From IMG/VR virus record IMGVR_UViG_3300032117_000015, positions 18,149 to 82,148 of that record: a DNA stretch of 64,000 bases; one strand, given 5' to 3'. Source of the stretch: a virus. The position numbers and the translations under genes are program-made. This document shows positions 2,624 to 64,000 of the stretch, one piece after another. The notes under the pieces are model-generated. The model was not told where the DNA came from. It did not search any database and saw only the letters and a program-made list of their open reading frames with translations. Every line of letters begins with the position of its first letter. The first letter of the stretch is position 1.

Positions 2624-3639
2624 CATATATTATAGTTGATACTGCTAACACATTCTTTCGTGCTAGACACGTAGTTCAAGGCTCTGCTGATATCAAACTC
2701 GGCATGGCATTTCACATTACTTTTAACAGTATCAAAAAGGCTTGGCAAGACTTCGGTGGCACTCATGTAGTGTTCTGCCTTGAAGGTCGTAGCTGGCGCA
2801 AAGACTACTACAAGCCATACAAGGCTAACCGTGCTGAAAATCGTGCGGCTATGACACAACGAGAACAAGATGAAGATAAATTGTTCTGGGAAGCATTTGA
2901 CGAGTTTAAAAATTTCATTACAGAAAAAACTAACTGTACTGTAATGCAACATCCCAATCTAGAAGCAGATGATTTAATTGCTGGCTGGGTACAAGCACAT
3001 CCAGATTCCAAACATGTTATTATTTCGACAGATGGAGATTTTGCACAATTAGTAAGTCCTACAGTTAGTCAATATAACGGTGTTGCAGATCATCACATTA
3101 CACACGAAGGAACATTTGATGCAAAAGGTAAACCTGTTAAAGACAAGAAAACAGGCGAGCCTAAGCCTGCACAAGATCCAGAGTGGATGCTATTCGAAAA
3201 ATGTATGCGAGGCGACACATCGGATAATGTCTTTTCGGCTTATCCAGGTGTTCGAACAAAAGGGTCAAAGAATAAAGTTGGTCTCCAAGAGGCATTTGCC
3301 GATCGTAAGACTAAAGGATTTAATTGGAACAATCTCATGTTGCAACGTTGGGTCGACCACAATGGACAAGAACACAGAGTCTTAGAAGATTACCAACGCA
3401 ATGTGCAGTTATGTGACTTAACAGCACAGCCCGACGACATTAAAGCTAAGATTAGAGAAACTATCAACACTCACGCTGTGCCTAAGACTGTTGATCAGGT
3501 AGGAATTCGTATGCTCAAGTTTTGCAATGCTTGGGATATGAAAAAGATTGCTGATAATATTCAGCAATATGCAGAACCATTCCAAGCAAAATATCTTGAG
3601 AAAGATGTTACTTGGCGTAAACTAACCGAGGAAAATTAA
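2620..3639 (+). CDS. rnh: T4 RNase H-like 5'-3' exonuclease (FEN family)
   Basis: Motifs IIVDTAN, WRKDYYKPYKANR, LEADDLIA, ISTDGDFAQL and GDTSDNV. Confidence 0.9.
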   Translation: MTYIIVDTANTFFRARHVVQGSADIKLGMAFHITFNSIKKAWQDFGGTHVVFCLEGRSWRKDYYKPYKANRAENRAAMTQREQDEDKLFWEAFDEFKNFITEKTNCTVMQHPNLEADDLIAGWVQAHPDSKHVIISTDGDFAQLVSPTVSQYNGVADHHITHEGTFDAKGKPVKDKKTGEPKPAQDPEWMLFEKCMRGDTSDNVFSAYPGVRTKGSKNKVGLQEAFADRKTKGFNWNNLMLQRWVDHNGQEHRVLEDYQRNVQLCDLTAQPDDIKAKIRETINTHAVPKTVDQVGIRMLKFCNAWDMKKIADNIQQYAEPFQAKYLEKDVTWRKLTEEN

Positions 3640-3640
3640 A

Positions 3641-3835
3641 ATGAGTGCAATTTCAGAAAAATTAACAAAAGTAAACGAAAGTTTCACAATCAATCGCTAC
3701 GACAACGGTTTTATGATCGAAGTCGGTGGTCGTAACGAAGACGACGATTGGAAAACAGCTAAAGTTATTGTAGGTACAGAAGAAGAATTAATTGAACTAA
3801 TTCAAGAAACTCTATCACTACCAGTAGCAGAATAA
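3641..3835 (+). CDS. hypothetical protein
   Basis: Compact ORF in the operon with GAGGA upstream. Confidence 0.7.
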   Translation: MSAISEKLTKVNESFTINRYDNGFMIEVGGRNEDDDWKTAKVIVGTEEELIELIQETLSLPVAE

Positions 3836-4569
3836 TGTTTTTCTTTTTCAGACCTTCCACAATTACGGTAGACGTTTTTTGTGCAGATGAAATTATATTC
3901 CATAATTTCAAACCAGAACGTGCAAATAAATTCCTTCCTAAATTTTGGAAGGAACTGCCGCCATATTTAGATCAAAAGGCAATACAAAATCCTCATAGTA
4001 AATTAATGACTAAAGTTGGCACATTGAAAAAGTGTGTCGGTTTTACAGATTTATTTTCTAATGGATTTATTTTGCCTAATTGGGCAGACTGGCAAAACGA
4101 AGTGTTACCAAGCGGAGTAAGTGTTACTGCAAACTTTAATAGTGAAGATGTTAACAGCACATTCTCAGGCCATGGTCGTACACAATTCGGCGAACCACTT
4201 TACAAAAATTGTGGGCATATTAAAATAGACAGTCCATGGTTGTTTAAAGAAAAAACTGGTGTTAAGTTTACATGGAATGGATGTCCTTGGCATAACACAG
4301 ATGCATTAGAAAATTTTTATGTGTTGTCTGCTATTGTAAATTATAAAAATCAAATCGGTACTAATGTTAACGCATTCCAGCGTAAAGGTTCGATTGTGCA
4401 GTTTACAGCAGGTGATCCGTTAATACATCTAGTTCCTATGAGTGAGAAGAAAGTTAAAATTGCACATCATCAAATTTCTCAACAAGAATGGCATAATATG
4501 AATTCTCGAGAAATGATTGCACTACGTTATAAAGATTCAAGAGCAGTTAAAGCAAAATGCCCATTTTAG
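3835..4569 (+). CDS. hypothetical protein
   Basis: 244-aa ORF coupled by TAATG. No family recognised with confidence. Confidence 0.75.
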   Translation: MFFFFRPSTITVDVFCADEIIFHNFKPERANKFLPKFWKELPPYLDQKAIQNPHSKLMTKVGTLKKCVGFTDLFSNGFILPNWADWQNEVLPSGVSVTANFNSEDVNSTFSGHGRTQFGEPLYKNCGHIKIDSPWLFKEKTGVKFTWNGCPWHNTDALENFYVLSAIVNYKNQIGTNVNAFQRKGSIVQFTAGDPLIHLVPMSEKKVKIAHHQISQQEWHNMNSREMIALRYKDSRAVKAKCPF

Positions 4570-6106: not shown

Positions 6107-6510
6107 TAACCAGAGATGCATTAACCAAAATATTTTTACAACAGTGGGGCAAAAGCATAGATGATGCCAATGTTAAAATATTTGGTCGTAAATGGTGGCA
6201 AAGTACAAGAGCAGGTAAGCAAAATAACTTTCGGTTAAGTGACGAAGGTTACGAATTTTTAACTCAAGAATTGGATTTGAAAGCGTACGAAGTTCCGTTT
6301 ACTGAACCAATCGAACTAAGTCCACAAACAATTATATTTTTAGAAAGATACGTGGACTGCCCTTACTATCTTACCCCCATGTCAATCACTGTCTTCTCAG
6401 AACGCAAAGGTTTTGAGCTAATGTTGTTTTCAGACGACATCAGAAAATTCGGCTTAATTAAAGCTATGAATGAGCGAGAAAAAGAACTCGCAAGTCAAAA
6501 TAATAGTTGA
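6103..6510 (+). CDS. hypothetical protein
   Basis: ORF coupled by an ATGA overlap. Confidence 0.75.
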   Translation: MITRDALTKIFLQQWGKSIDDANVKIFGRKWWQSTRAGKQNNFRLSDEGYEFLTQELDLKAYEVPFTEPIELSPQTIIFLERYVDCPYYLTPMSITVFSERKGFELMLFSDDIRKFGLIKAMNEREKELASQNNS

Positions 6511-6535
6511 CTTAACTCCTACTCTGCCTTATAAT
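6507..6535 (+). promoter_or_regulatory. sigma70-type promoter
   Basis: TTGACT-N17-TATAAT upstream of the AAA ATPase. Confidence 0.85.
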
Positions 6536-6590
6536 ACATACTTACACAGCATTATTCGCACAATTTTTTAACTAAGTTAGGAACTTAAAA

Positions 6591-7679
6591 ATGGCAGAAA
6601 TCAATAGTCGCACAGTGGGCCCAAGCGGTGCCAAAAAATCTTTGCGTAAAGCATTTAAAAATCAGCGTCCGCTTTTCCTATGGGGCCCTCCAGGCATTGG
6701 AAAATCTGACATTATTAAACAACTTGGCGATGAGCTAGAAGCTCATGTTATTGACGTTCGTCTTTCACTTTGGGAACCTACTGATATTAAAGGTATTCCA
6801 TATTTTGATAGCAATGATGGTACTATGCGTTGGGCACCTCCTGCAGAACTTCCAAGCAAGGACTTTGCTTCAAATCACAAACAAATCATTTTGTTCTTGG
6901 ACGAAATGAACTCTGCGGCACCTGCTGTACAAGCCGCCGCTTATCAACTTATCCTTAACCGTAAAGTCGGTGCATATCAATTACCAGACAATGTTGTAAT
7001 TGTTGCGGCTGGTAACCGTGAAACTGACAAGGGTGTTACATTCCGTATGCCTGCTCCATTGGCAAACCGTTTTGTTCACTTGGAAATGCAAGTTAACTGG
7101 GATGACTGGTTTGAATGGGCTGTTGAAAACAAAATCCACAAGGACGTTGTTGGCTATTTGACTTTCTCTAAAAAGAGCTTGTATGACTTCGATCCAAAGT
7201 CTAGCTCACGTGCATTTGCTACACCCCGCTCTTGGAGTTTTGTAAGCGAATTGCTTACAGACGACGACACAGATGTTGATACATTGACTGATCTTACATG
7301 CGGTTCTGTTGGTGAAGGTTTGGCAATCAGCTTTATGGCTCACCGTAAAGTTGCATCAAAGATGCCTAACCCAAGCGACATTTTGAGTGGTAAAGTTAAG
7401 AAAATGGACTCAAAAGAAATTTCAGCTATGTACTCGTTGACTGTGTCATTGTGCTACGAATTGAAAGATTCTTGCGAGAAGAAAGCTAAAGATTGGAATG
7501 ATCAAGTTAACTACTTCTTCGAATTTATGATGAATAACTTCGAAACAGAATTGGTTATTATGGGTACTAAATTGGCTTTGAGCACTTACAAGTTGCCATT
7601 GGATCCAGATGAAATCAAATGCTTTGATGATTTCCATGCTAAGTTTGGCAAATACATTAGTCAAGCTACTGAAAAATAA
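6591..7679 (+). CDS. MoxR/dynein-related AAA+ ATPase
   Basis: Walker A GPPGIGKS, Walker B LFLDE, sensor AAGNR, Arg finger ANRF, and TPRSW. Confidence 0.9.
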   Translation: MAEINSRTVGPSGAKKSLRKAFKNQRPLFLWGPPGIGKSDIIKQLGDELEAHVIDVRLSLWEPTDIKGIPYFDSNDGTMRWAPPAELPSKDFASNHKQIILFLDEMNSAAPAVQAAAYQLILNRKVGAYQLPDNVVIVAAGNRETDKGVTFRMPAPLANRFVHLEMQVNWDDWFEWAVENKIHKDVVGYLTFSKKSLYDFDPKSSSRAFATPRSWSFVSELLTDDDTDVDTLTDLTCGSVGEGLAISFMAHRKVASKMPNPSDILSGKVKKMDSKEISAMYSLTVSLCYELKDSCEKKAKDWNDQVNYFFEFMMNNFETELVIMGTKLALSTYKLPLDPDEIKCFDDFHAKFGKYISQATEK

Positions 7680-48112: not shown

Positions 48113-48288
48113 TGGCTTCAGTTAAAAACACAAGAGAAATGAACGAGCCAGAGTTAAACTATCGTGCTACCATCATCTGGGATAATATGACCACCGTAGT
48201 AGAGAACGGTGTCGAAGTATCTCGTGTGTATAAAGATAACAGTATCCGGCTCGACCTGTTTAAACAACATTTCGGAGTTAAAGAATGA
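48112..48288 (+). CDS. 58-aa protein ending in KQHFGVKE
   Basis: Read by hand: MASVKNTREMNEPELNYRATIIWDNMTTVVENGVEVSRVYKDNSIRLDLFKQHFGVKE. GGAG RBS; coupled to gp47. Confidence 0.65.
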   Translation: MASVKNTREMNEPELNYRATIIWDNMTTVVENGVEVSRVYKDNSIRLDLFKQHFGVKE

Positions 48289-49298
48289 GCAACTTGTTCA
48301 AGAAGGTTGCGTGTATGACCGATATTCATTTCGGTCTCAAGAGCAACTCATCAGTACACAACCAAGATTGTGAAGAGTTTGTAGATTGGTATATTGCAAA
48401 AGCAAAGGAGAAAGGATGTGATACAGGTATCTTTATGGGTGATTGGCATCATAACCGTAATAGCCTTAACATTACTACAATGGATTATAGTCTTAGGGCC
48501 TTGGAGAAGTTGGGTGCGGCGTTCGATAACTTCTATTTCTTTCCTGGTAATCATGATCTGTATTACAAAGACAAACGGGATATACACTCTGTGGAGTTTG
48601 GAAAGTATATACCTGGTGTCACTGTGGTACATGAGCCTACTACTATTGGAGATGTTACACTCTATCCCTGGCTTGTCGGCGACGAATGGAAAACTATAAG
48701 CAAGCGAACAGGCAAATATTGCTTTGGGCATTTTGAACTTCCTAAGTTTTTTATGAACGCAATGGTTCAGATGCCGGATCATGGCGAGCTACAAGTCGAT
48801 GCGTTCAAAGGGTTTGAATTAGGATTTAGCGGACATTTTCATAAACGTCAAGAAAATGAAAATATGATTTATATCGGTAATGCGTTTCCGCACAATTATT
48901 CAGATGCATGGGACGATGACCGCGGCATGATGATTTTAGAATGGGGCGGTAAGCCTGAGTATTTTAGTTGGCCTAAACAACCTACTTACAGAACTATTAA
49001 ACTAAGTGAACTGATTGATCGTGCAGACGAAATTATTCTGCCTAGACAGCATTTACGTGTTACACTAGACATTGATATCAGTTACGAAGAAGCAAGTTTT
49101 ATTAAAGAAAAGTTCATGTCAGATTATGATATACGTGAACTAACATTAATTGCCGAGAAAAAAGACATCGAAATTAATACAAATATCGATGTGCAGGCAT
49201 TTGAAAGTGTCGATCAAATTGTTAGCAATCAAATTGTTAATATTGATTCAGACACTTACGACAAAAATACACTACTGGCAATTTATAGCGGCTTATGA
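48285..49298 (+). CDS. gp47: recombination endonuclease subunit (gp47/Mre11/SbcD-like)
   Basis: Phosphoesterase motifs DIHFG, GDWHH, GNHD, GHFE and SGHFH. Confidence 0.92.
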   Translation: MSNLFKKVACMTDIHFGLKSNSSVHNQDCEEFVDWYIAKAKEKGCDTGIFMGDWHHNRNSLNITTMDYSLRALEKLGAAFDNFYFFPGNHDLYYKDKRDIHSVEFGKYIPGVTVVHEPTTIGDVTLYPWLVGDEWKTISKRTGKYCFGHFELPKFFMNAMVQMPDHGELQVDAFKGFELGFSGHFHKRQENENMIYIGNAFPHNYSDAWDDDRGMMILEWGGKPEYFSWPKQPTYRTIKLSELIDRADEIILPRQHLRVTLDIDISYEEASFIKEKFMSDYDIRELTLIAEKKDIEINTNIDVQAFESVDQIVSNQIVNIDSDTYDKNTLLAIYSGL

Positions 49299-51073
49299 TT
49301 ATAATTAAAGATTTAACAGTTAAAAACTTCATGAGTGTGGGTAACCAGACTCAAGCTGTAGACTTTGGTAAAGAGAACTTAACACTTGTACTAGGTGAAA
49401 ACTTAGACCAAGGCGGAGATGATAACGGAAGTCGTAACGGTACTGGTAAAACTACTATTGTTAATGCACTAAGTTATGCATTGTTTGGAGTTGCATTAAC
49501 TAACATTAAAAAAGATAATCTTATTAATAAGATTAATACTAAAGGAATGTTAGTTACACTTACGTTTGAAAAAGACGGTACTATGTATCGCATTGAACGT
49601 GGACGCAAACCCAATGTACTCAAGTTCTTCATCGATGATATGGAACAGGAAACTGCTGAAACCGATGACGCACAAGGCGATATGCGTGAGACCCAGAAGG
49701 ACTTAGATGACTTGCTGGGCATGAGTCACGACATGTTCAAGCACATTGTTGCTCTAAACACTTATACTGAACCGTTTTTAAGTATGCGAGCTAACGATCA
49801 ACGTGTTATTATTGAACAGTTGTTGGGAATTACACTATTAAGTGAAAAAGCAGAAATACTTAAAGAACAAATTAAAGAAACAAAAGATGCTATCTTACAA
49901 GAGACAGCAAATATAGAAGCAATTAAAAAATCTAACGATAAAATCCAACTAAGCATTGATAGTTTACTAACAAGGCAAATGGCTTGGGAAAATCAACATA
50001 GACAAGAATTAGAAAAGATTGGCAAAGCAATCGTAGAACTTGAAAGTGTAGATATTGAAGCAGAGCTTGCCAAGCATGCCGAGCTCAAAGAGTATGATGA
50101 GAAATCAGCGAAGCTGAAAAGCCTAAATAAAGAGCGGGCAACGCTCGAAGCGGCGCTAGCACAAGCGGAGCGAAACGTAAAAAAATACGCTAGCGAGCTT
50201 GCTAAGTTGCAGGACAAAAAATGTCACGCTTGTGACCAAGAGTTGCATGATCACAAACATGAAGAAATGTCTGCTCAAGCTACCAAGCACGTTGAAGAAG
50301 CCGCCACTTATTACGATACTGTTAACGCAGACTTGATTAAAATCAATGGCGAACTAGAAAAGATAGGTGAAATCAATGGGCGTCCAAAAACTTACTATGA
50401 CACGTTAGAGCAAGCACTAAAACACCAGAATAATTTAAAAACTCTAGAAGCACAGTTAAGCACTAAGGCTGTAGATGTTGATCCTTATCAAGAGCAAATT
50501 GAAGAATTGCGTATGACAGCTATGCAGGAAGTGTCATGGGATCATGTTAACGCATACACTAGCTTAAAGGATCATCAGGAGTTTTTATTAAAGTTGTTGA
50601 CTAGCAAGGATTCGTTTATTCGTAAAAAGATCATTGATCAAAACCTAGCTTACTTGAATAATCGGTTAACTTACTATCTTGATAAGATAGGTTTACCGCA
50701 TAGCGTAGTATTTCAAAATGATTTAACTGTGCTTATCACCCAGCTAGGGCAAGATTTAGATTTTGATAATCTAAGTCGAGGTGAGCGTAATAGACTTATC
50801 CTTGGTTTGTCATGGGCTTTCCGTGACGTATGGGAATCACTATATCAAGGTATTAACTTGTTGTTTGTTGACGAGTTAATTGATAATGGTTTAGATCCGT
50901 CTGGTGTTGAAGGCGCATTGGCTGTGCTTAAGAAGATGGGTCGTGAACGCAAGAAAAACATTTTCTTAATCAGTCACAAGGAAGAGTTGATAGGTCGTGT
51001 TAACAATGTGTTAAAAGTTGTTAAGGAAAACGGATTTACCAGCTATGCAAACGATTTAGAAATTAATGAGTAA
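49295..51073 (+). CDS. gp46: recombination ATPase subunit (gp46/Rad50/SbcC-like)
   Basis: KNFMSVGN, Walker A NGTGKTT, coiled coil with CHAC hook, LSRGE signature, LFVDE and ISH. Confidence 0.93.
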   Translation: MIIIKDLTVKNFMSVGNQTQAVDFGKENLTLVLGENLDQGGDDNGSRNGTGKTTIVNALSYALFGVALTNIKKDNLINKINTKGMLVTLTFEKDGTMYRIERGRKPNVLKFFIDDMEQETAETDDAQGDMRETQKDLDDLLGMSHDMFKHIVALNTYTEPFLSMRANDQRVIIEQLLGITLLSEKAEILKEQIKETKDAILQETANIEAIKKSNDKIQLSIDSLLTRQMAWENQHRQELEKIGKAIVELESVDIEAELAKHAELKEYDEKSAKLKSLNKERATLEAALAQAERNVKKYASELAKLQDKKCHACDQELHDHKHEEMSAQATKHVEEAATYYDTVNADLIKINGELEKIGEINGRPKTYYDTLEQALKHQNNLKTLEAQLSTKAVDVDPYQEQIEELRMTAMQEVSWDHVNAYTSLKDHQEFLLKLLTSKDSFIRKKIIDQNLAYLNNRLTYYLDKIGLPHSVVFQNDLTVLITQLGQDLDFDNLSRGERNRLILGLSWAFRDVWESLYQGINLLFVDELIDNGLDPSGVEGALAVLKKMGRERKKNIFLISHKEELIGRVNNVLKVVKENGFTSYANDLEINE

Positions 51074-51347: not shown

Positions 51348-51782
51348 ATGTCTTGGACTTATCAAAATCAAATTATAGAAACCCTCCCTGAAGAATGCAT
51401 AGGATTCGTATATCTTATTACAAACACTACTAACGGGCGCATGTACATAGGCAAAAAATTAGCAAAATTTAGCAAAACTACCTACAAGACAGTAAAACTT
51501 AAAAACGGCAAGAAGAAAAAACAAAAAATCCGCAGTAAAATTGACAGCGATTGGCGTGAATATTATGGTTCATCGCCCGAGTTGACTAAAGATATTGCGC
51601 TGTTAGGCAAAGAAAATTTCACTAGAGAAATACTTTATTACTGCGAATCTAAAGCGATGTGCAGTTATATTGAAGCTAGAGAACAGTTTTCACGCAGAGT
51701 TTTAGAATCAAAAGACTACTATAATGGTCATATTCAAGTGCGTGTACATGGATCACATATACTCAAGGCTCAACAAAAGTAG
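51348..51782 (+). CDS. stand-alone GIY-YIG endonuclease (T4 endonuclease II-like size)
   Basis: GFVYLITNTTNGRMYIGKK, YYGSS, FTREIL, catalytic-type E in YIEAREQ, and YYN. Confidence 0.8.
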   Translation: MSWTYQNQIIETLPEECIGFVYLITNTTNGRMYIGKKLAKFSKTTYKTVKLKNGKKKKQKIRSKIDSDWREYYGSSPELTKDIALLGKENFTREILYYCESKAMCSYIEAREQFSRRVLESKDYYNGHIQVRVHGSHILKAQQK

Positions 51783-51789
51783 GCAAAAT

Positions 51790-52250
51790 ACCGCCAAATA
51801 AGCCTGCACAGGCGTTGTTAAAGTGCCCTTAAAGCTGGATCTCGGATCGCAGTCAATGGAATTCCTGCTTGGTGGCAGGGTTATAAATCACTATCCTTAA
51901 CAGGACGACGATGGAACGTGCCTTAAATCCGTTTGATTTATAAGAGAAAATTTTAAAAAGGCTAAAAGAGGGGTTGTAGCCCCACGTTTGTATGCATGTT
52001 AGCGTATGTATGCAAGCCGCCGTCATATAAAGACAGCATGAGCAGGTACCGGATGACCGCCTGTGTTTTAGTGCTAACGCTAAGTGATATTGTTCGACTC
52101 GGATAATGTTGTTTAACTTTGCCCGCTAGGGCAAAGTGTGACTGAACGATCTGGATAATATTTAAAACGCTTTGCGTTAATTATTCAGTTTAAAATAAAC
52201 AGATTAGTTCGAGCGAAAGCGAAGAACAGAAGAACGTAAGTTCTTCTTTA
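51790..52250 (+). ncRNA. candidate large structured non-coding RNA (about 460 nt); boundaries approximate
   Basis: Gap of about 500 nt with no ORF in the track. More than 10 helices can be drawn, many with G-U pairs valid only on the + strand, plus GNRA tetraloops and a 7-bp pseudoknot. Confidence 0.7.
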
Positions 52251-52257
52251 GTGTGTA

Positions 52258-52265
52258 GATAAATA
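52258..52265 (+). promoter_or_regulatory. late promoter GATAAATA
   Basis: Upstream of the ORF at 52287. Confidence 0.65.
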
Positions 52266-52286
52266 CCTTATAGGAAATCACGAATA

Positions 52287-53426
52287 ATGAAAGTTACTGA
52301 AATCATAGAGAATCCGCTTCAAGAATGGCTAACATTCGAAGCTACTGTCGGTGCTAATGCCGGAACAATAAGTCCTGGTGGAATTGCTATTCCTACTGGT
52401 TCTACTACACATTTACCTCCATCATCAACTCCTAAAGCAAGTGGTACAGGTAATTGGAAAAGTCCTCTTGGACCAATGCCTAAAACTAACATTGGTAAAA
52501 TGCTTTCTAAAGATCAAATTTGGTCTAAAGTAAAAACTACACTAGCATCAAGTCCTATTAATAAAGCACCTTTATCTAGCAAAGGTTTAAAAGTAGTTGG
52601 TAACTATATTCGTGTTGCACAATGGTTTAACTATTATGACTTCTTAGTTGAATACTGGAAAACTAAAGAAGTTATCGAACAAATGGTCAAGGATGGTCCA
52701 GATAAAGGTGGACTTTCAGAAGACGACGGTGAAGTAGCTATTAGATTACAACGTGAAAAACTATATGTTGACTTAATCAGTGGCGGCATTATTAATAGCA
52801 TCGTTATTAAAATGATCAAAGTCATTCCTCTTGCACGTTGGTTCAGCAGAGGAGCAGGCGCTTTACTTGAAATCTTCACAGGTGGGTTAGCTACTGCTGG
52901 TGTTGTTGGTGAAATATTGTTAGTTGAAGCAGTAACAGTATTATTACAAAAATGGTTAAACTCAGAAGATGGTAAACGTGTAATCACATGGTGTGTTTGC
53001 TATCTTATCGATCCAGGTGTTGAGTTGTTTTGGCAAATGGGATGTGAACGTTTCTTTGGAGAGTTAAAACACATGTCGACACAAGGTGATGAGAATCTTG
53101 AAAAAGGCAATAAAGTAAATGGAACTCCTGCATCGGATTTAATTACTAAGGCAGGTAACGCTGTTTCTGGCGCACTCGGCGGAGTGGCGGCTGGTGCAGG
53201 TGATTGGGTTTCAAAGAATGTTAGTAAAGATGCTGGAAAAGCTATTACGGATCTAGGAAAAGATAGTTCAAGTAGTAGTTCGTCTTCTAGTCCATCAACT
53301 CCGTCAGGATCTAAATCAAAAATAAATCAAACATCTGATGATGACAATGACGGACTTGATAAAACTAATATAAGAGTGAGAAGACCAGGCGACATTGATC
53401 AGAGTTTAATAAAACCTGGTAATTAA
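52287..53426 (+). CDS. late hypothetical protein with hydrophobic segments (possible internal virion protein)
   Basis: Late promoter, MKVTEIIE N-terminus, Gly/Ala-rich hydrophobic helices and a Ser-rich tail. Confidence 0.7.
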   Translation: MKVTEIIENPLQEWLTFEATVGANAGTISPGGIAIPTGSTTHLPPSSTPKASGTGNWKSPLGPMPKTNIGKMLSKDQIWSKVKTTLASSPINKAPLSSKGLKVVGNYIRVAQWFNYYDFLVEYWKTKEVIEQMVKDGPDKGGLSEDDGEVAIRLQREKLYVDLISGGIINSIVIKMIKVIPLARWFSRGAGALLEIFTGGLATAGVVGEILLVEAVTVLLQKWLNSEDGKRVITWCVCYLIDPGVELFWQMGCERFFGELKHMSTQGDENLEKGNKVNGTPASDLITKAGNAVSGALGGVAAGAGDWVSKNVSKDAGKAITDLGKDSSSSSSSSSPSTPSGSKSKINQTSDDDNDGLDKTNIRVRRPGDIDQSLIKPGN

Positions 53427-63261: not shown

Positions 63262-63354
63262 ATACATAGTAACAACTCACATAGGGTGAGTTTTATGCAG
63301 AAATCCAACTGCGTACGGCCTAGAACGCCGTGTTTTTCATAAGGAGAAAACAAA
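63257..63354 (+). promoter_or_regulatory. late promoter plus multi-hairpin 5' leader
   Basis: CATAAATA (63257-63264) followed by three clear hairpins and a fourth over the RBS. Confidence 0.6.
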
Positions 63355-64000
63355 ATGGGACGTCCTCTTAATAAAAAGTACTTTAGCTCACGTAATGCGT
63401 CAGCATCAGGTACATATAGCCGCTCTGCCGCAGTTGATGCCGGCATTGGTGGTTCAAATATTGCAAGTCTTGCAACAGGCGGTACACTAACAGGTTATAC
63501 ATCTGGTGCTCCAAGTTTATCAATCTTTGGTCCACAACTTGCTAACGGTGTACAAGCTACAGCAGTTGCAGTTTTAACAGCGGCCGCGGCCAGTGTTACA
63601 AGTGGTGGTACAGGTTATCCAGCATCAAGTACATTTACAGTTTCAGTAACTGGTACAAATGTTCAAGGCGGTGGTACAGCAGTATTGAACGTTACAACAA
63701 ACGGTTCTGGCGTTATTACAACAGTTAACTCAGTAACTTCTGGCGGTACATGGACTGGCGCAACATCGGGTGCAACAGCTTTAACGGCAGTTGGTAGTAC
63801 ATTTACATCGGCCGCTACATTCACACTAACATCATTCACAATTACAAGTTATTCATTAACTAACAACGGTGGTGATGGTTATTTAGATTCTGCAGATACT
63901 AAGACCATGAGCATCACAGCAACTGACGGTAGTGGTAACATTACAGTTAGTTCGATTGATGAAATGGTTGTTGGTATGAAATTTACACCAAGCCAATCAA
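63355..64000 (+). CDS. G/S/T-rich virion structural protein (runs off the window)
   Basis: AAGGAG RBS; MGRPLNKKYFSSRNASASG... stays open to the window end. Not in the ORF track. Confidence 0.8.
   Translation, partial: MGRPLNKKYFSSRNASASGTYSRSAAVDAGIGGSNIASLATGGTLTGYTSGAPSLSIFGPQLANGVQATAVAVLTAAAASVTSGGTGYPASSTFTVSVTGTNVQGGGTAVLNVTTNGSGVITTVNSVTSGGTWTGATSGATALTAVGSTFTSAATFTLTSFTITSYSLTNNGGDGYLDSADTKTMSITATDGSGNITVSSIDEMVVGMKFTPSQS

What the first reader, a model, noticed from the sequence alone, without database searches (positions are those of the whole stretch)
51783..52257. Large pseudoknotted structured RNA directly downstream of a stand-alone GIY-YIG nuclease
Seen: this is the only long non-coding gap in a very dense window, and almost all of it pairs. 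TTATAAATCA(51881-90)/TGATTTATAA(51934-43) closes a three-way junction containing TCCT-taac-AGGA and GATGGA/TCCGTT. A 13-bp helix (51986-98/52005-17) has four G-U pairs, and its loop TTAGCG(T) is complementary to ACGCTAA (52077-83), giving a pseudoknot. Further helices: TCCTGC/GCAGGG; GGGGT-tgta-GCCCC; AGCAT/GTGCT enclosing GCAGGT/GCCTGT; GATATTGTTCG/CGGATAATGTT; ACTTTGCCC-gcta-GGGCAAAGT; CTGGATAAT/ATTATTCAG enclosing AACGC-ttt-GCGTT; and two GNRA-capped stems (GAAA, GTAA) at the 3' end. The G-U pairs would be A-C mismatches on the other strand, which points to a + strand RNA. I do not recognise it as tRNA, tmRNA, RNase P or a group I/II intron. Inference: it may be an undescribed large phage ncRNA, possibly forming an RNP with the 144-aa GIY-YIG protein encoded just upstream. 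That protein has a catalytic domain and a basic insertion (KTVKLKNGKKKKQKIRSK) but no separate DNA-recognition domain.
Basis: partly seen in the sequence, partly recalled or inferred. Interest (0 to 1): 0.9.

Follow-up and report, generated by a model that had tools for sequence, protein, structure and literature searches.

The report
Full-length twin-box Polynucleobacter-1 phage RNA
The gene-free gap behind a small nuclease gene of this uncultured freshwater T4-like phage encodes a real, doubly knotted RNA of about 460 bases; only its first third was catalogued, its job is unknown, and the nuclease looks like a neighbour rather than a partner.

Summary
Window 51783-52286 is the only internal ORF-free stretch over 300 nt. 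It folds better than shuffles on the + strand (z -4.67). On 74 non-redundant phage homologues, a 111-pair structure with two pseudoknots is 85.6% paired, against 37-42% when slid, and 76 pairs change on both sides.

It is not wholly undescribed. 51801-51943 is a full-length match to Rfam RF01718, Polynucleobacter-1 (93.6 bits, cut-off 37). The remaining ~300 nt are uncatalogued but conserved.

The same full-length RNA lies in Polynucleobacter chromosomes without any GIY-YIG gene. There it sits between a DUF6641 gene and a 188-aa tyrosine recombinase.

The 3' domain carries one 7-nt word twice (52101-07 and 52153-59). The two copies are identical in 73 of 74 phages, with nine different words. 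I found no partner for them.

The RNP idea is not supported. GIY-YIG homologues in three cultured phages lack the RNA, and one phage has a PD-(D/E)XK nuclease in that slot.

This scan found the same RNA earlier on other DNA. Function remains unknown.

The parts
51348..51782 (+). 144-aa SegE-type GIY-YIG nuclease gene. It is the upstream neighbour and is not shown to be part of the RNA's function.
   Evidence: Pfam PF19835 at 3.3e-33. phrog_447 at 3.5e-37 over 9-146 of 148 profile positions.
51792..52247 (+). The whole structured RNA, about 456 nt, from the 5' strand of pseudoknot 1 to the end of the last hairpin.
   Evidence: Covariation over the full length. nhmmer finds it full-length in 66 of 80 loci that were fetched by the protein.
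51792..51797 (+). Pseudoknot 1, 5' strand (CGCCAA). It pairs with 51869-51874 and lies upstream of the Rfam model's start.
   Evidence: All 6 pairs change on both sides, for example 51796/51870 GC 39 and AU 29. In the bacterial copies I read the same pairing by eye, as CUACUG/CAGUAG and CUACCG/CGGUAG.
51801..51943 (+). 5' domain. It is a full-length Rfam RF01718 Polynucleobacter-1 match: three hairpins plus a three-way junction.
   Evidence: 93.6 bits against a gathering score of 37, model positions 1-141 of 141.
51869..51874 (+). Pseudoknot 1, 3' strand (UUGGUG), in the loop of the third Rfam hairpin.
51944..52083 (+). Uncatalogued middle domain. Helices: 51960-62/52019-21, 51970-73/51980-83 (variable), 51986-97/52006-17, 52022-24/52032-34, 52035-39/52071-75, 52042-46/52060-64, 52050-52/52057-59. 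It contains the invariant stretch GGUACCGG..ACCGCC.
   Evidence: Per-helix counts. Invariant columns.
51999..52005 (+). Pseudoknot 2, loop strand (UUAGCGU). It pairs with 52077-52083 (ACGCUAA).
   Evidence: All 7 pairs change on both sides and 96.2% of cells are paired. I first saw it. In the bacterial copies I read CCACUUA/UAAGUGG at the same place by eye.
52076..52249 (+). 3' twin-box domain, the span of my covariance model R1.
   Evidence: R1 scores 150.4 bits here. It finds model positions 1-169 in bacterial loci that were not in its seed, at 66.8-87.2 bits.
52097..52107 (+). Handle ACUC plus box 1 (GGAUAAU).
   Evidence: ACUC and box position 6 (A) are invariant in 85 of 85 phage and bacterial sequences. 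Box 1 equals box 2 in 73 of 74 phage sequences.
52149..52159 (+). Handle AUCU plus box 2 (GGAUAAU).
52207..52227 (+). GAAA-capped stem with flanking G-A/A-G.
   Evidence: 52213/52220 is GC 67, AU 5. 52214/52219 is CG 68, UA 6. 52210/52224 is UA 39, CG 32.
52228..52247 (+). Terminal 8-bp GUAA-capped hairpin followed by UUU. It is the possible 3' end of the RNA.
   Evidence: All 8 pairs change on both sides and 97.6% of cells are paired. The simple terminator scan did not call it.
52258..52265 (+). GATAAATA, 22 nt before the next gene's ATG. It resembles the T4 late-promoter box. It is not part of the RNA.
   Evidence: ATAAATA stands in the consensus of A1 just behind the last hairpin. The T4 late consensus TATAAATA is recalled from memory, not from a call.

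Best explanation
**What it is.** The gap encodes one autonomous, roughly 456-nt structured non-coding RNA on the + strand. It is a full-length member of a family whose 5' third is Rfam's orphan motif Polynucleobacter-1 (RF01718).

**What is shown.**
- About twenty helices.
- Two pseudoknots.
- Many invariant unpaired bases.
- Homologous copies both in a large clade of freshwater T4-like phages and in mobile islands of Polynucleobacter chromosomes.

**What is inferred.**
- In the phage the RNA is transcribed together with the upstream gp47-gp46-GIY-YIG block. It starts 10 nt after the stop codon.
- It ends at the terminal hairpin, just before the next gene's late-type promoter.
- It acts in trans. 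A rigid, knotted scaffold displays two identical single-stranded 7-nt words, each behind a conserved A-(C/U)-U-(C/U) handle.
- The two words change in concert between lineages, so I read them as base-pairing sites for two copies of one nucleic-acid partner encoded elsewhere.
- The GIY-YIG nuclease is a conserved, vertically inherited neighbour and not the RNA's obligate partner.
For: **Identity.** RF01718 matches at 93.6 bits over the full model.

**Structure.**
- 85.6% of cells are paired, against 37-42% when the partners are slid.
- 1006 cells change on both sides, against 344.5 +/- 18.1 in shuffles.
- 0 of 500 shuffles reach the observed value on any of the five measures.

**Extent.**
- The whole gap is conserved behind the gene in 66 of 80 protein-first loci.
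- 12 more loci have a partial match; 5 of these are cut by the contig end.
- The 2 loci without a match have too little DNA behind the gene.

**Independence from the nuclease.**
- RF01718 scores over its cut-off in 17 of 151 Polynucleobacter genomes.
- The 3' domain model R1 hits 27 of 151.
- tblastn finds no GIY-YIG at those loci.
- The neighbours there are DUF6641 and a 188-aa tyrosine recombinase, in 8 of 8 wider loci tested.
- None of 8 island proteins has a homologue in the window at E <= 1e-4.

**Twin boxes.**
- The two words are identical in 73 of 74 phages, with 9 different words.
- They are identical in 10 of 14 bacterial copies.
- The best mutual-information partner of each variable box position is its twin, at 0.30-1.15 bits.

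**Nuclease under purifying selection, not recently spread.** In 38 phages whose gp46 is under 65% identical:
- GIY-YIG amino-acid identity is 0.76, against 0.59 for gp46.
- Identity at fourfold sites is 0.45, against 0.42.

**RNA library.** A 292-nt contig of a lake metatranscriptome, from a relative, covers 51659-51828. A second contig covers 51958-52098. This is a weak hint only, because DNA can be present in such a library.
Against: - No partner for the boxes was found. There is no conserved internal complement: 38 of 74 sequences have none at all.
- There is no recurring site in the flanks. Own-word density is 0.224 per kb against 0.154 expected, and no position recurs in more than 4 of 74 loci.
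- There is no excess in the window: 8 occurrences on the + strand and 4 on the - strand, against 7.2 expected per strand.
- A protein reader of the boxes is not excluded.
- Within phages the linkage to the nuclease is nearly perfect. 57 of 58 RNA-first loci carry the GIY-YIG gene just upstream. The 58th has another nuclease there. In bacteria a DNA recombinase is the fixed neighbour. That pattern can be read as functional.
- Transcript ends, abundance and trans action were not measured.
- No promoter of the RNA's own was found.
Confidence: 0.5

Rival explanations
1. Nuclease-RNA system. The RNA binds the domain-only GIY-YIG protein and supplies its DNA recognition, with the twin 7-nt words acting as guides.
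For: - The gene and the RNA are adjacent in 57 of 58 RNA-first loci, and 78 of 80 protein-first loci hold the RNA.
- The protein is only a catalytic domain: PF19835 covers residues 3-129 of 144.
- The boxes vary in concert, as guides would.
- The one exception has another small nuclease in the slot.
- In bacteria the neighbour is a small recombinase.
Against: - The RNA exists without any GIY-YIG in at least 17 Polynucleobacter genomes.
- GIY-YIG homologues of the same 140-150-aa family are in 353 GenBank phage records. The three whole genomes I tested have no RF01718 and no R1 match.
- ORFs of 92 to about 800 codons in total separate the gene and the RNA in some phages.
- No target for the boxes was found in the flanks or in the window.
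- 7 nt is short for a guide.
- No paper in the held library links GIY-YIG to guide RNAs. I saw 7 papers in the search listing only, and none has such a title or abstract start.
Confidence: 0.07
2. Cis-acting 3' UTR. The structure belongs to the nuclease mRNA and stabilises it, terminates it, or controls its translation or processing.
For: - It starts 10 nt after the stop codon, and no promoter of its own was found.
- An RNA-library contig bridges the gene end and the RNA start.
- Weinberg et al. 2010 scored the 5' motif 'y' for cis-regulatory in their table (PMC2864571, one passage read).
Against: - In bacteria it stands alone, downstream of a divergently oriented gene.
- It keeps its structure when other ORFs lie between it and the nuclease gene.
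- About 456 nt with two pseudoknots, invariant loops and concerted twin words is far more than a stabiliser needs.
Confidence: 0.12
3. A conserved RNA gene that attracts selfish nucleases. The RNA has its own, unknown function, and the neighbouring nucleases are homing-type genes that settled beside a conserved sequence.
For: - Two unrelated nuclease families, GIY-YIG and PD-(D/E)XK (PF24608, 2.5e-29), occupy the same slot.
- PADLOC's best hits for the GIY-YIG protein are homing endonuclease models.
- The behaviour of Seg-type genes in T4 is recalled from memory, not from a call.
Against: - The GIY-YIG gene is not sporadic. It is present in all 80 related loci by construction, and in 57 of 58 RNA-first loci.
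- It is under strong purifying selection with saturated synonymous sites.
- It lacks a DNA-binding domain.
Confidence: 0.15
4. A self-assembling or protein-sequestering RNA particle, like the large ornate RNAs of phages and mobile elements (ROOL, GOLLD). The twin words would be contact or protein-binding sites.
For: The size, the number of invariant unpaired bases, two pseudoknots, and its location in phages and mobile islands. The comparison with ROOL and GOLLD is recalled from memory, not from a call.
Against: - No Rfam match to ROOL, GOLLD, OLE or HEARO, even at E up to 10.
- Identical words cannot pair with each other, and no complement covaries with them.
- Assembly cannot be tested with these tools.
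Confidence: 0.1
5. A DNA-level element (replication origin, iterons or a recombination site) and not an RNA. This was the alternative reading noted for 52140-52250 (e1-6121142).
For: - The twin words are direct repeats 52 bp apart, as iterons can be.
- In bacteria a recombinase and an RFC/DnaX-like ATPase are neighbours.
Against: - Strand-specific G-U pairs are conserved. 51910/51933 is G-U in 74 of 74 sequences, and this would be A-C on the other strand.
- 76 of 111 pairs show compensatory change.
- The + strand folds better than the - strand.
- The spacing of the boxes differs between phages (about 50-60 nt) and bacteria (72-86 nt).
Confidence: 0.03

Closest known systems
Polynucleobacter-1 RNA motif (Rfam RF01718; Weinberg et al. 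2010, Genome Biol 11:R31, PMC2864571)
   Same: 51801-51943 matches the whole 141-position model at 93.6 bits. The habitat and taxa fit the paper's table entry, 'Burkholderiales, fresh water/estuary'. Ten non-source DNA runs that hold at least half of the sampled words are lake-water metagenomes.
   Different: - The Rfam model covers only the first third of the RNA.
- Not in the model: the 5' strand of pseudoknot 1 upstream of the model's start, the roughly 140-nt middle domain with pseudoknot 2, and the roughly 170-nt twin-box domain.
- Some phage variants keep the 3' domain but score no RF01718 (L040, L041).
Large ornate RNAs of phages and mobile elements (GOLLD, ROOL, OLE, HEARO); recalled from memory
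   Same: Several hundred nucleotides, many conserved helices and pseudoknots, carried by phages and mobile islands, function unknown or only recently approached.
   Different: No sequence or structure match to any of their Rfam models, even at E up to 10. Multimerisation was not tested. None of those RNAs is known to me to carry a concerted twin word.
Guide RNAs of mobile-element enzymes (omega RNA of TnpB/IscB, bridge RNA of IS110); recalled from memory, plus the search listing
   Same: A structured RNA is encoded next to a DNA-cutting or DNA-joining enzyme of a mobile element or phage. It has short variable words on a conserved scaffold.
   Different: - The enzymes here (GIY-YIG, PD-(D/E)XK, a small tyrosine recombinase) belong to other families.
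- The words are only 7 nt long and identical to each other.
- No target was found.
- The RNA and the enzyme each occur without the other.
Seg-type free-standing GIY-YIG endonucleases of T4 (Pfam PF19835 SegE_GIY-YIG) and phrog_447
   Same: The catalytic domain matches PF19835 at 3.3e-33. It matches the 148-position phrog_447 end to end.
   Different: - There is no C-terminal DNA-binding domain.
- The distribution is not sporadic, and selection is strongly purifying.
- In GenBank and PHROGs the family is mostly named 'NAD synthetase', which the GIY-YIG match contradicts.

Membership tests
Rfam RF01718 Polynucleobacter-1 RNA | Score at or above the curated gathering score over the whole model | tested here: met
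   93.6 bits against 37, model positions 1-141 of 141, E 8.4e-19 for the whole window.
Rfam RF01718 Polynucleobacter-1 RNA | Consensus helices: three hairpins and a three-way junction | tested here: met
   The cmscan alignment marks only one non-standard pair. The junction helices covary in 74 homologues. Helices 5, 7 and 8 are 99-100% paired.
Rfam RF01718 Polynucleobacter-1 RNA | The motif as catalogued is the whole RNA | tested here: not met
   Conserved, covarying structure continues for about 300 nt further 3', and about 10 nt further 5'. This applies to the bacterial copies too.
RNA-guided nuclease systems (CRISPR, OMEGA-type) | The nuclease and the RNA always occur together | tested here: not met
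   RNA without GIY-YIG in bacteria. GIY-YIG homologues without the RNA in 3 of 3 whole cultured phage genomes.
RNA-guided nuclease systems (CRISPR, OMEGA-type) | A variable guide segment that matches a DNA target | tested here: inconclusive
   Variable twin words exist. No target was found in 559,603 flank bases or in the window. Whole genomes of the relatives were not searched.
RNA-guided nuclease systems (CRISPR, OMEGA-type) | The protein binds the RNA | not testable with these tools
   Needs purified components.
Free-standing homing endonuclease (Seg-like GIY-YIG) | GIY-YIG catalytic domain | tested here: met
   PF19835 at 3.3e-33.
Free-standing homing endonuclease (Seg-like GIY-YIG) | A separate DNA-binding domain | tested here: not met
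   The protein is 144 aa and the domain covers residues 3-129. No other Pfam family hits.
Free-standing homing endonuclease (Seg-like GIY-YIG) | Sporadic presence among close relatives, or recent spread | tested here: not met
   Present in 57 of 58 RNA-first loci. Synonymous sites are as saturated as in gp46.
tRNA, tmRNA, RNase P, group I/II introns, GOLLD, ROOL, OLE, HEARO | A match to the family's model | tested here: not met
   ARAGORN found 0 genes. cmscan at E up to 10 over 51600-52400 lists only RF01718 and four sub-threshold matches of 15-20 bits.
Rfam RF02947 cow-rumen-2 RNA | Score at or above the gathering score, or a recurring match in homologues | tested here: not met
   19.9 bits against 66, E 0.5. 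It is not listed for any of 17 homologous loci at E up to 10.
Intrinsic terminator | GC-rich stem followed by a U run | tested here: not met
   The scan does not call 52228-52247. The stem has 3 G-C pairs and only UUU follows it.

The most novel reading that the evidence does not exclude
The RNA is a programmable adaptor for small DNA enzymes that lack their own DNA-recognition domain: GIY-YIG or PD-(D/E)XK nucleases in phages, and a 188-aa tyrosine recombinase in Polynucleobacter islands. On this reading the two identical 7-nt words would each pair with one of two identical DNA sites and so set where the enzyme cuts or joins. This would be a new class of RNA-guided DNA enzyme outside the CRISPR, OMEGA and bridge-RNA families.
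Probability: 0.04. Interest if true: 0.95.

Novelty: new variant of a known kind. Interest (0 to 1): 0.6.

Why it matters
Rfam's Polynucleobacter-1 has been an orphan 141-nt motif since 2010. The held library has one paper that names it.

This window and its relatives show that the motif is the head of a roughly 456-nt, doubly knotted RNA. That size and complexity put it among the few large bacterial and phage RNAs of unknown function.

The RNA is abundant. At least 540 viral contigs encode the linked nuclease. It is shared between lytic T4-like phages and mobile islands of their likely hosts, which points to a role in phage-host or phage-island conflict.

The concerted twin words give a concrete handle for experiments. 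Whatever reads them must change with them.

Cultured Polynucleobacter strains that carry the island copy would make the RNA testable, even though no cultured phage tested here has it.

Tried and rejected
- **cow-rumen-2 (RF02947).** It hits 51986-52083 at 19.9 bits. I rejected it as chance or too weak, because it does not recur in 17 homologous loci.

GATATTGTTCG/CGGATAATGTT and CTGGATAAT/ATTATTCAG are not conserved.

- **A 4-bp pairing of box 1 with AUCU (52101-04/52149-52).** It is 97.6% paired in phages. It is not compensated in the 4 sequences with C at box position 2, and by my reading it is not conserved in bacteria. I left it out of model R1.

- **An internal partner of the boxes.** None covaries.

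- **DNA targets of the boxes.** I found none in the flanks or the window. The recurring ATTATCT sites lie in a conserved gp46 coding motif and do not follow the word.

- **A codon-like reading of box positions 3-5** (AUA/AUG in phages; CGA/CAA/AGA in bacteria). I considered it but did not test it. A full complement of a 7-nt anticodon loop does not fit, because position 37 is a purine (recalled from memory).

- **Sigma-70-type promoter.** There is one 10-of-12 match at 51541-51569, inside the gene. The region holds fewer such matches than shuffles do.

- **blastn of the gap against GenBank phages.** No match.

- **Genome contigs pattern scan.** It returned 114 stretches, of which 80 are listed. 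Only L258 held the RNA, and it is a 2.4-kb phage-like contig binned into a MAG. L275, in a Polynucleobacter genome, was a chance match.

- **PADLOC on 8 island proteins.** No defence system was found. There was only a weak TRIP13-like hit to the AAA protein.

- **RNA run X20.** 24 of 30 depth bins have no cover. That says nothing about expression.

- **Errors I made and corrected.** The window coordinates printed are shifted by one or more bases after about 52036, because I had dropped gappy columns. The later helices inherited the shift and were recounted. One search picked the wrong word in about 21 of 74 sequences and was redone.

Full report
**Setting.** The window is part of an 82-kb IMG/VR virus record. 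It is T4-like. A Metallophos protein (48285-49298) and an SMC/AAA_23 protein (49295-51073) stand in the gp47/gp46 positions. An 89-aa ORF follows, then a 144-aa GIY-YIG gene (51348-51782). Next come 504 nt without an ORF, and then a 379-aa ORF with no family match. Ten DNA runs that hold at least half of the sampled words, and are not flagged as possible sources, are lake-water metagenomes. They come from 10 studies of one year, which may be one campaign.

**Observation.** The gap is the only internal ORF-free stretch over 300 nt in the window. The + strand folds with z -4.67 and the - strand with z -2.91. The 13-bp helix has four G-U pairs, as stated.

**Identity of the 5' third.** cmscan at gathering thresholds gives two hits in the window. 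One is RF01718 Polynucleobacter-1 at 51801-51943 on the + strand, at 93.6 bits over the full model. The other is freshwater-2 at 63275-63357. A permissive scan of 51600-52400 adds only sub-threshold matches of 15-20 bits. ARAGORN finds no tRNA or tmRNA. The only paper in the held library that names the motif is Weinberg et al. 2010. I read one passage of it, a table row. That row scores the motif as a likely RNA, likely cis-regulatory, with taxa 'Burkholderiales, fresh water/estuary'.

**Relatives.**
- A scan of viral contigs with the GIY-YIG protein found 540 relatives, of which 80 loci were kept.
- An HMM of the RNA finds it full-length in 66 of these 80 loci and in part in 12. Five of the partial matches are cut by the contig end. 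Seven match only the middle or 3' part.
- The 2 loci with no match hold too little DNA behind the gene.
- An independent scan with an RNA motif fetched 118 loci. Of these, 58 hold the RNA, and 57 of those have the GIY-YIG gene just upstream on the same strand. The other 60 were chance matches to the pattern. Some contigs occur in both sets.

**Structure.**
- I aligned 74 sequences with MAFFT (A1). They were thinned so that no two are more than 95% alike, and the alignment was not fitted to any structure.
- I counted a 111-pair structure of 24 helices on it. 85.6% of cells pair, against 37.4-42.0% when the partners are slid by 1-3 columns.
- 76 pairs change on both sides.
- 1006 cells change on both sides, against 344.5 +/- 18.1 in shuffles.
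- The covariation score is 0.351, against 0.150 in shuffles and 0.067-0.103 when slid.
- 0 of 500 shuffles reach the observed value on any measure.
All 7 of its pairs change on both sides.
- A second pseudoknot pairs 51792-51797 with the loop 51869-51874, and all 6 of its pairs change on both sides. Its 5' strand lies outside the Rfam model and only 10 nt after the stop codon.
- Helices 3, 4, 10 and 11 score poorly (51-67% paired). MAFFT mixes two sequence sub-families there. Helices 3 and 4 are part of the Rfam model.

**Twin boxes.**
- The 7 nt after the invariant ACUC (52101-07) equal the 7 nt after AUCU (52153-59) in 73 of 74 phage sequences. There are nine different words.
- For each variable position the highest mutual information in the whole alignment is with its twin.
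- Position 6 (A) and both handles are invariant across 85 phage and bacterial sequences.
- In bacteria the words differ from the phage ones (AGCGAAA, AACAAAA and others). The twins match in 10 of 14 copies.
- I noticed the repeated GGAUAAU. Earlier agents of this scan had already described 'twin boxes' on other genomes, and I tested their claim here.
- I found no complement that covaries inside the RNA. I found no recurring site in 559,603 bases of flanks. There is no excess in the window.

**Bacterial copies.**
- RF01718 scores over its cut-off in 17 of 151 sampled Polynucleobacter genomes, at 21 places.
- nhmmer finds both the 5' part and the 3' end about 400 nt apart at these loci.
- Twelve copies align over about 480 nt.
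- A covariance model of the 3' domain (R1: 85 sequences, 169 positions) finds the whole domain in bacterial loci not used to build it, at 66.8-87.2 bits.
- R1 hits 27 of 151 Polynucleobacter genomes and 4 of 151 sampled Burkholderiales genomes.
- R1 also finds the domain in phage variants where RF01718 does not score (L040, L041).
- The weaker R1 hits (33-40 bits) are a second RNA variant in the same genomic slot.
- The slot is constant. A divergently oriented DUF6641 gene comes first, then the RNA, then a 188-aa tyrosine recombinase of XerC/FimB-like type. Further on lie an RFC/DnaX-like AAA ATPase and unknown proteins.
- No GIY-YIG is present there. None of the eight island proteins has a homologue in the window. 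No PADLOC defence system matches.

**The nuclease.**
- It is a SegE-type GIY-YIG domain and nothing else.
- It belongs to phrog_447, a family of about 148 aa that is misnamed 'NAD synthetase'.
- tblastn finds relatives in 353 GenBank phage records, mostly cyanophages, all under 60% identical.
- In Melnitz-3, P-HM1 and ACP17 there is no large gap behind the gene. Neither RF01718 nor R1 scores anywhere in those three genomes.
- Within the freshwater clade the gene always follows the gp46 homologue, sometimes with other ORFs in between.
- Where gp46 is only 0.59 identical (38 loci), GIY-YIG is 0.76 identical. Fourfold sites are equally saturated, at 0.45 against 0.42. The gene is therefore old and under strong constraint, and has not spread recently.
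- In L091 a PD-(D/E)XK nuclease (PF24608, 2.5e-29) takes its place directly before the RNA.
- In L037, L040, L041 and L138, ORFs lie between the gene and the RNA.

**Expression.**
- One lake metatranscriptome run holds two short contigs from relatives. One covers 51659-51828 and crosses the gene end. The other covers 51958-52098.
- DNA can be present in such libraries, and contigs show neither ends nor strand, so this is only a hint.
- Behind the last hairpin, many homologues have ATAAATA. This resembles the T4 late promoter, which I recall from memory. It suggests that the RNA ends before the next gene's own promoter.

**Reading.**
- The RNA is real. It is a member of RF01718 and about three times longer than the catalogued motif.
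- It is shared by phages and by host islands that have nothing else in common with the phage locus. I therefore treat it as an autonomous module.
- The concerted twin words argue for a reader that discriminates A from G at two positions. That fits base pairing better than wobble-tolerant or purely structural roles.
- The constant presence of a DNA enzyme next door is the main fact that keeps the guide idea alive. There are three unrelated families: GIY-YIG, PD-(D/E)XK and a tyrosine recombinase. Against it stand the mutual independence of RNA and enzyme, the short words and the missing target.

**Novelty.**
- In the held library, no paper extends Polynucleobacter-1.
- No paper ties GIY-YIG to a guide RNA. 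One search listed 7 papers, and I saw only titles and the starts of abstracts.
- The scan itself has met this RNA many times on other DNA, with the same conclusions.

Noticed in passing
window 63275-63357 (+): Full-length Rfam freshwater-2 RNA (RF02980), 75.9 bits against a cut-off of 49.9. It ends in AAGGAG...AUG, so it is the leader of the next gene.
   Followed up: no
L091 3963-4484: In one related phage a 173-aa PD-(D/E)XK endonuclease (PF24608, 2.5e-29) replaces the GIY-YIG gene directly upstream of the RNA.
   Followed up: partly
L349-L352, L355, L356 (Polynucleobacter chromosomes), about 6150-6900 in each locus: A second, different structured-RNA variant sits in the same slot between the DUF6641 gene and the 188-aa recombinase gene. 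It shares only the 3' terminal stems and GUUUGAC..AAUCU with the twin-box RNA. It carries CCAAUC twice.
   Followed up: partly
L335 5959-11887 and the other island loci: The island gene set is conserved. It comprises DUF6641, a small XerC/FimB-like tyrosine recombinase (188 aa), a 249-aa Trp-rich protein, a 263-aa protein and an RFC/DnaX-like AAA ATPase (222 aa). Two islands lie about 18 kb apart in one genome (G110). No PADLOC system matches.
   Followed up: partly
window 51348-51782 and GenBank phage records: This GIY-YIG family (phrog_447; T4-like gene cluster 213 in the cyanophage record P-HM1) is widely annotated as 'NAD synthetase'. The Pfam GIY-YIG match contradicts that name.
   Followed up: no
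L027, L029-L032 (gap 3427-3913): A phage sub-lineage has a gap of the same length. Only the 3' domain there matches the HMM and model R1. The 5' two thirds have diverged beyond recognition or been replaced.
   Followed up: no
L138 5687-6487; L040 3443-4276: A 266-277-aa ORF starting (M..)FTGCS(F/Y)TAG is inserted between the GIY-YIG gene and the RNA in some phages. In L138 and L140 a radical SAM gene lies just upstream of the GIY-YIG gene.
   Followed up: no
window 52258-52265: GATAAATA lies 22 nt before the ATG of the 379-aa ORF. ATAAATA is conserved at this place in many homologues. It looks like a T4-type late promoter, which I recall from memory.
   Followed up: no
window 48180-48186: catctgGGATAATatg in the gp55-gp47 spacer resembles the box 2 context (gatctGGATAATat) with one extra G. 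I judge it to be chance.
   Followed up: no
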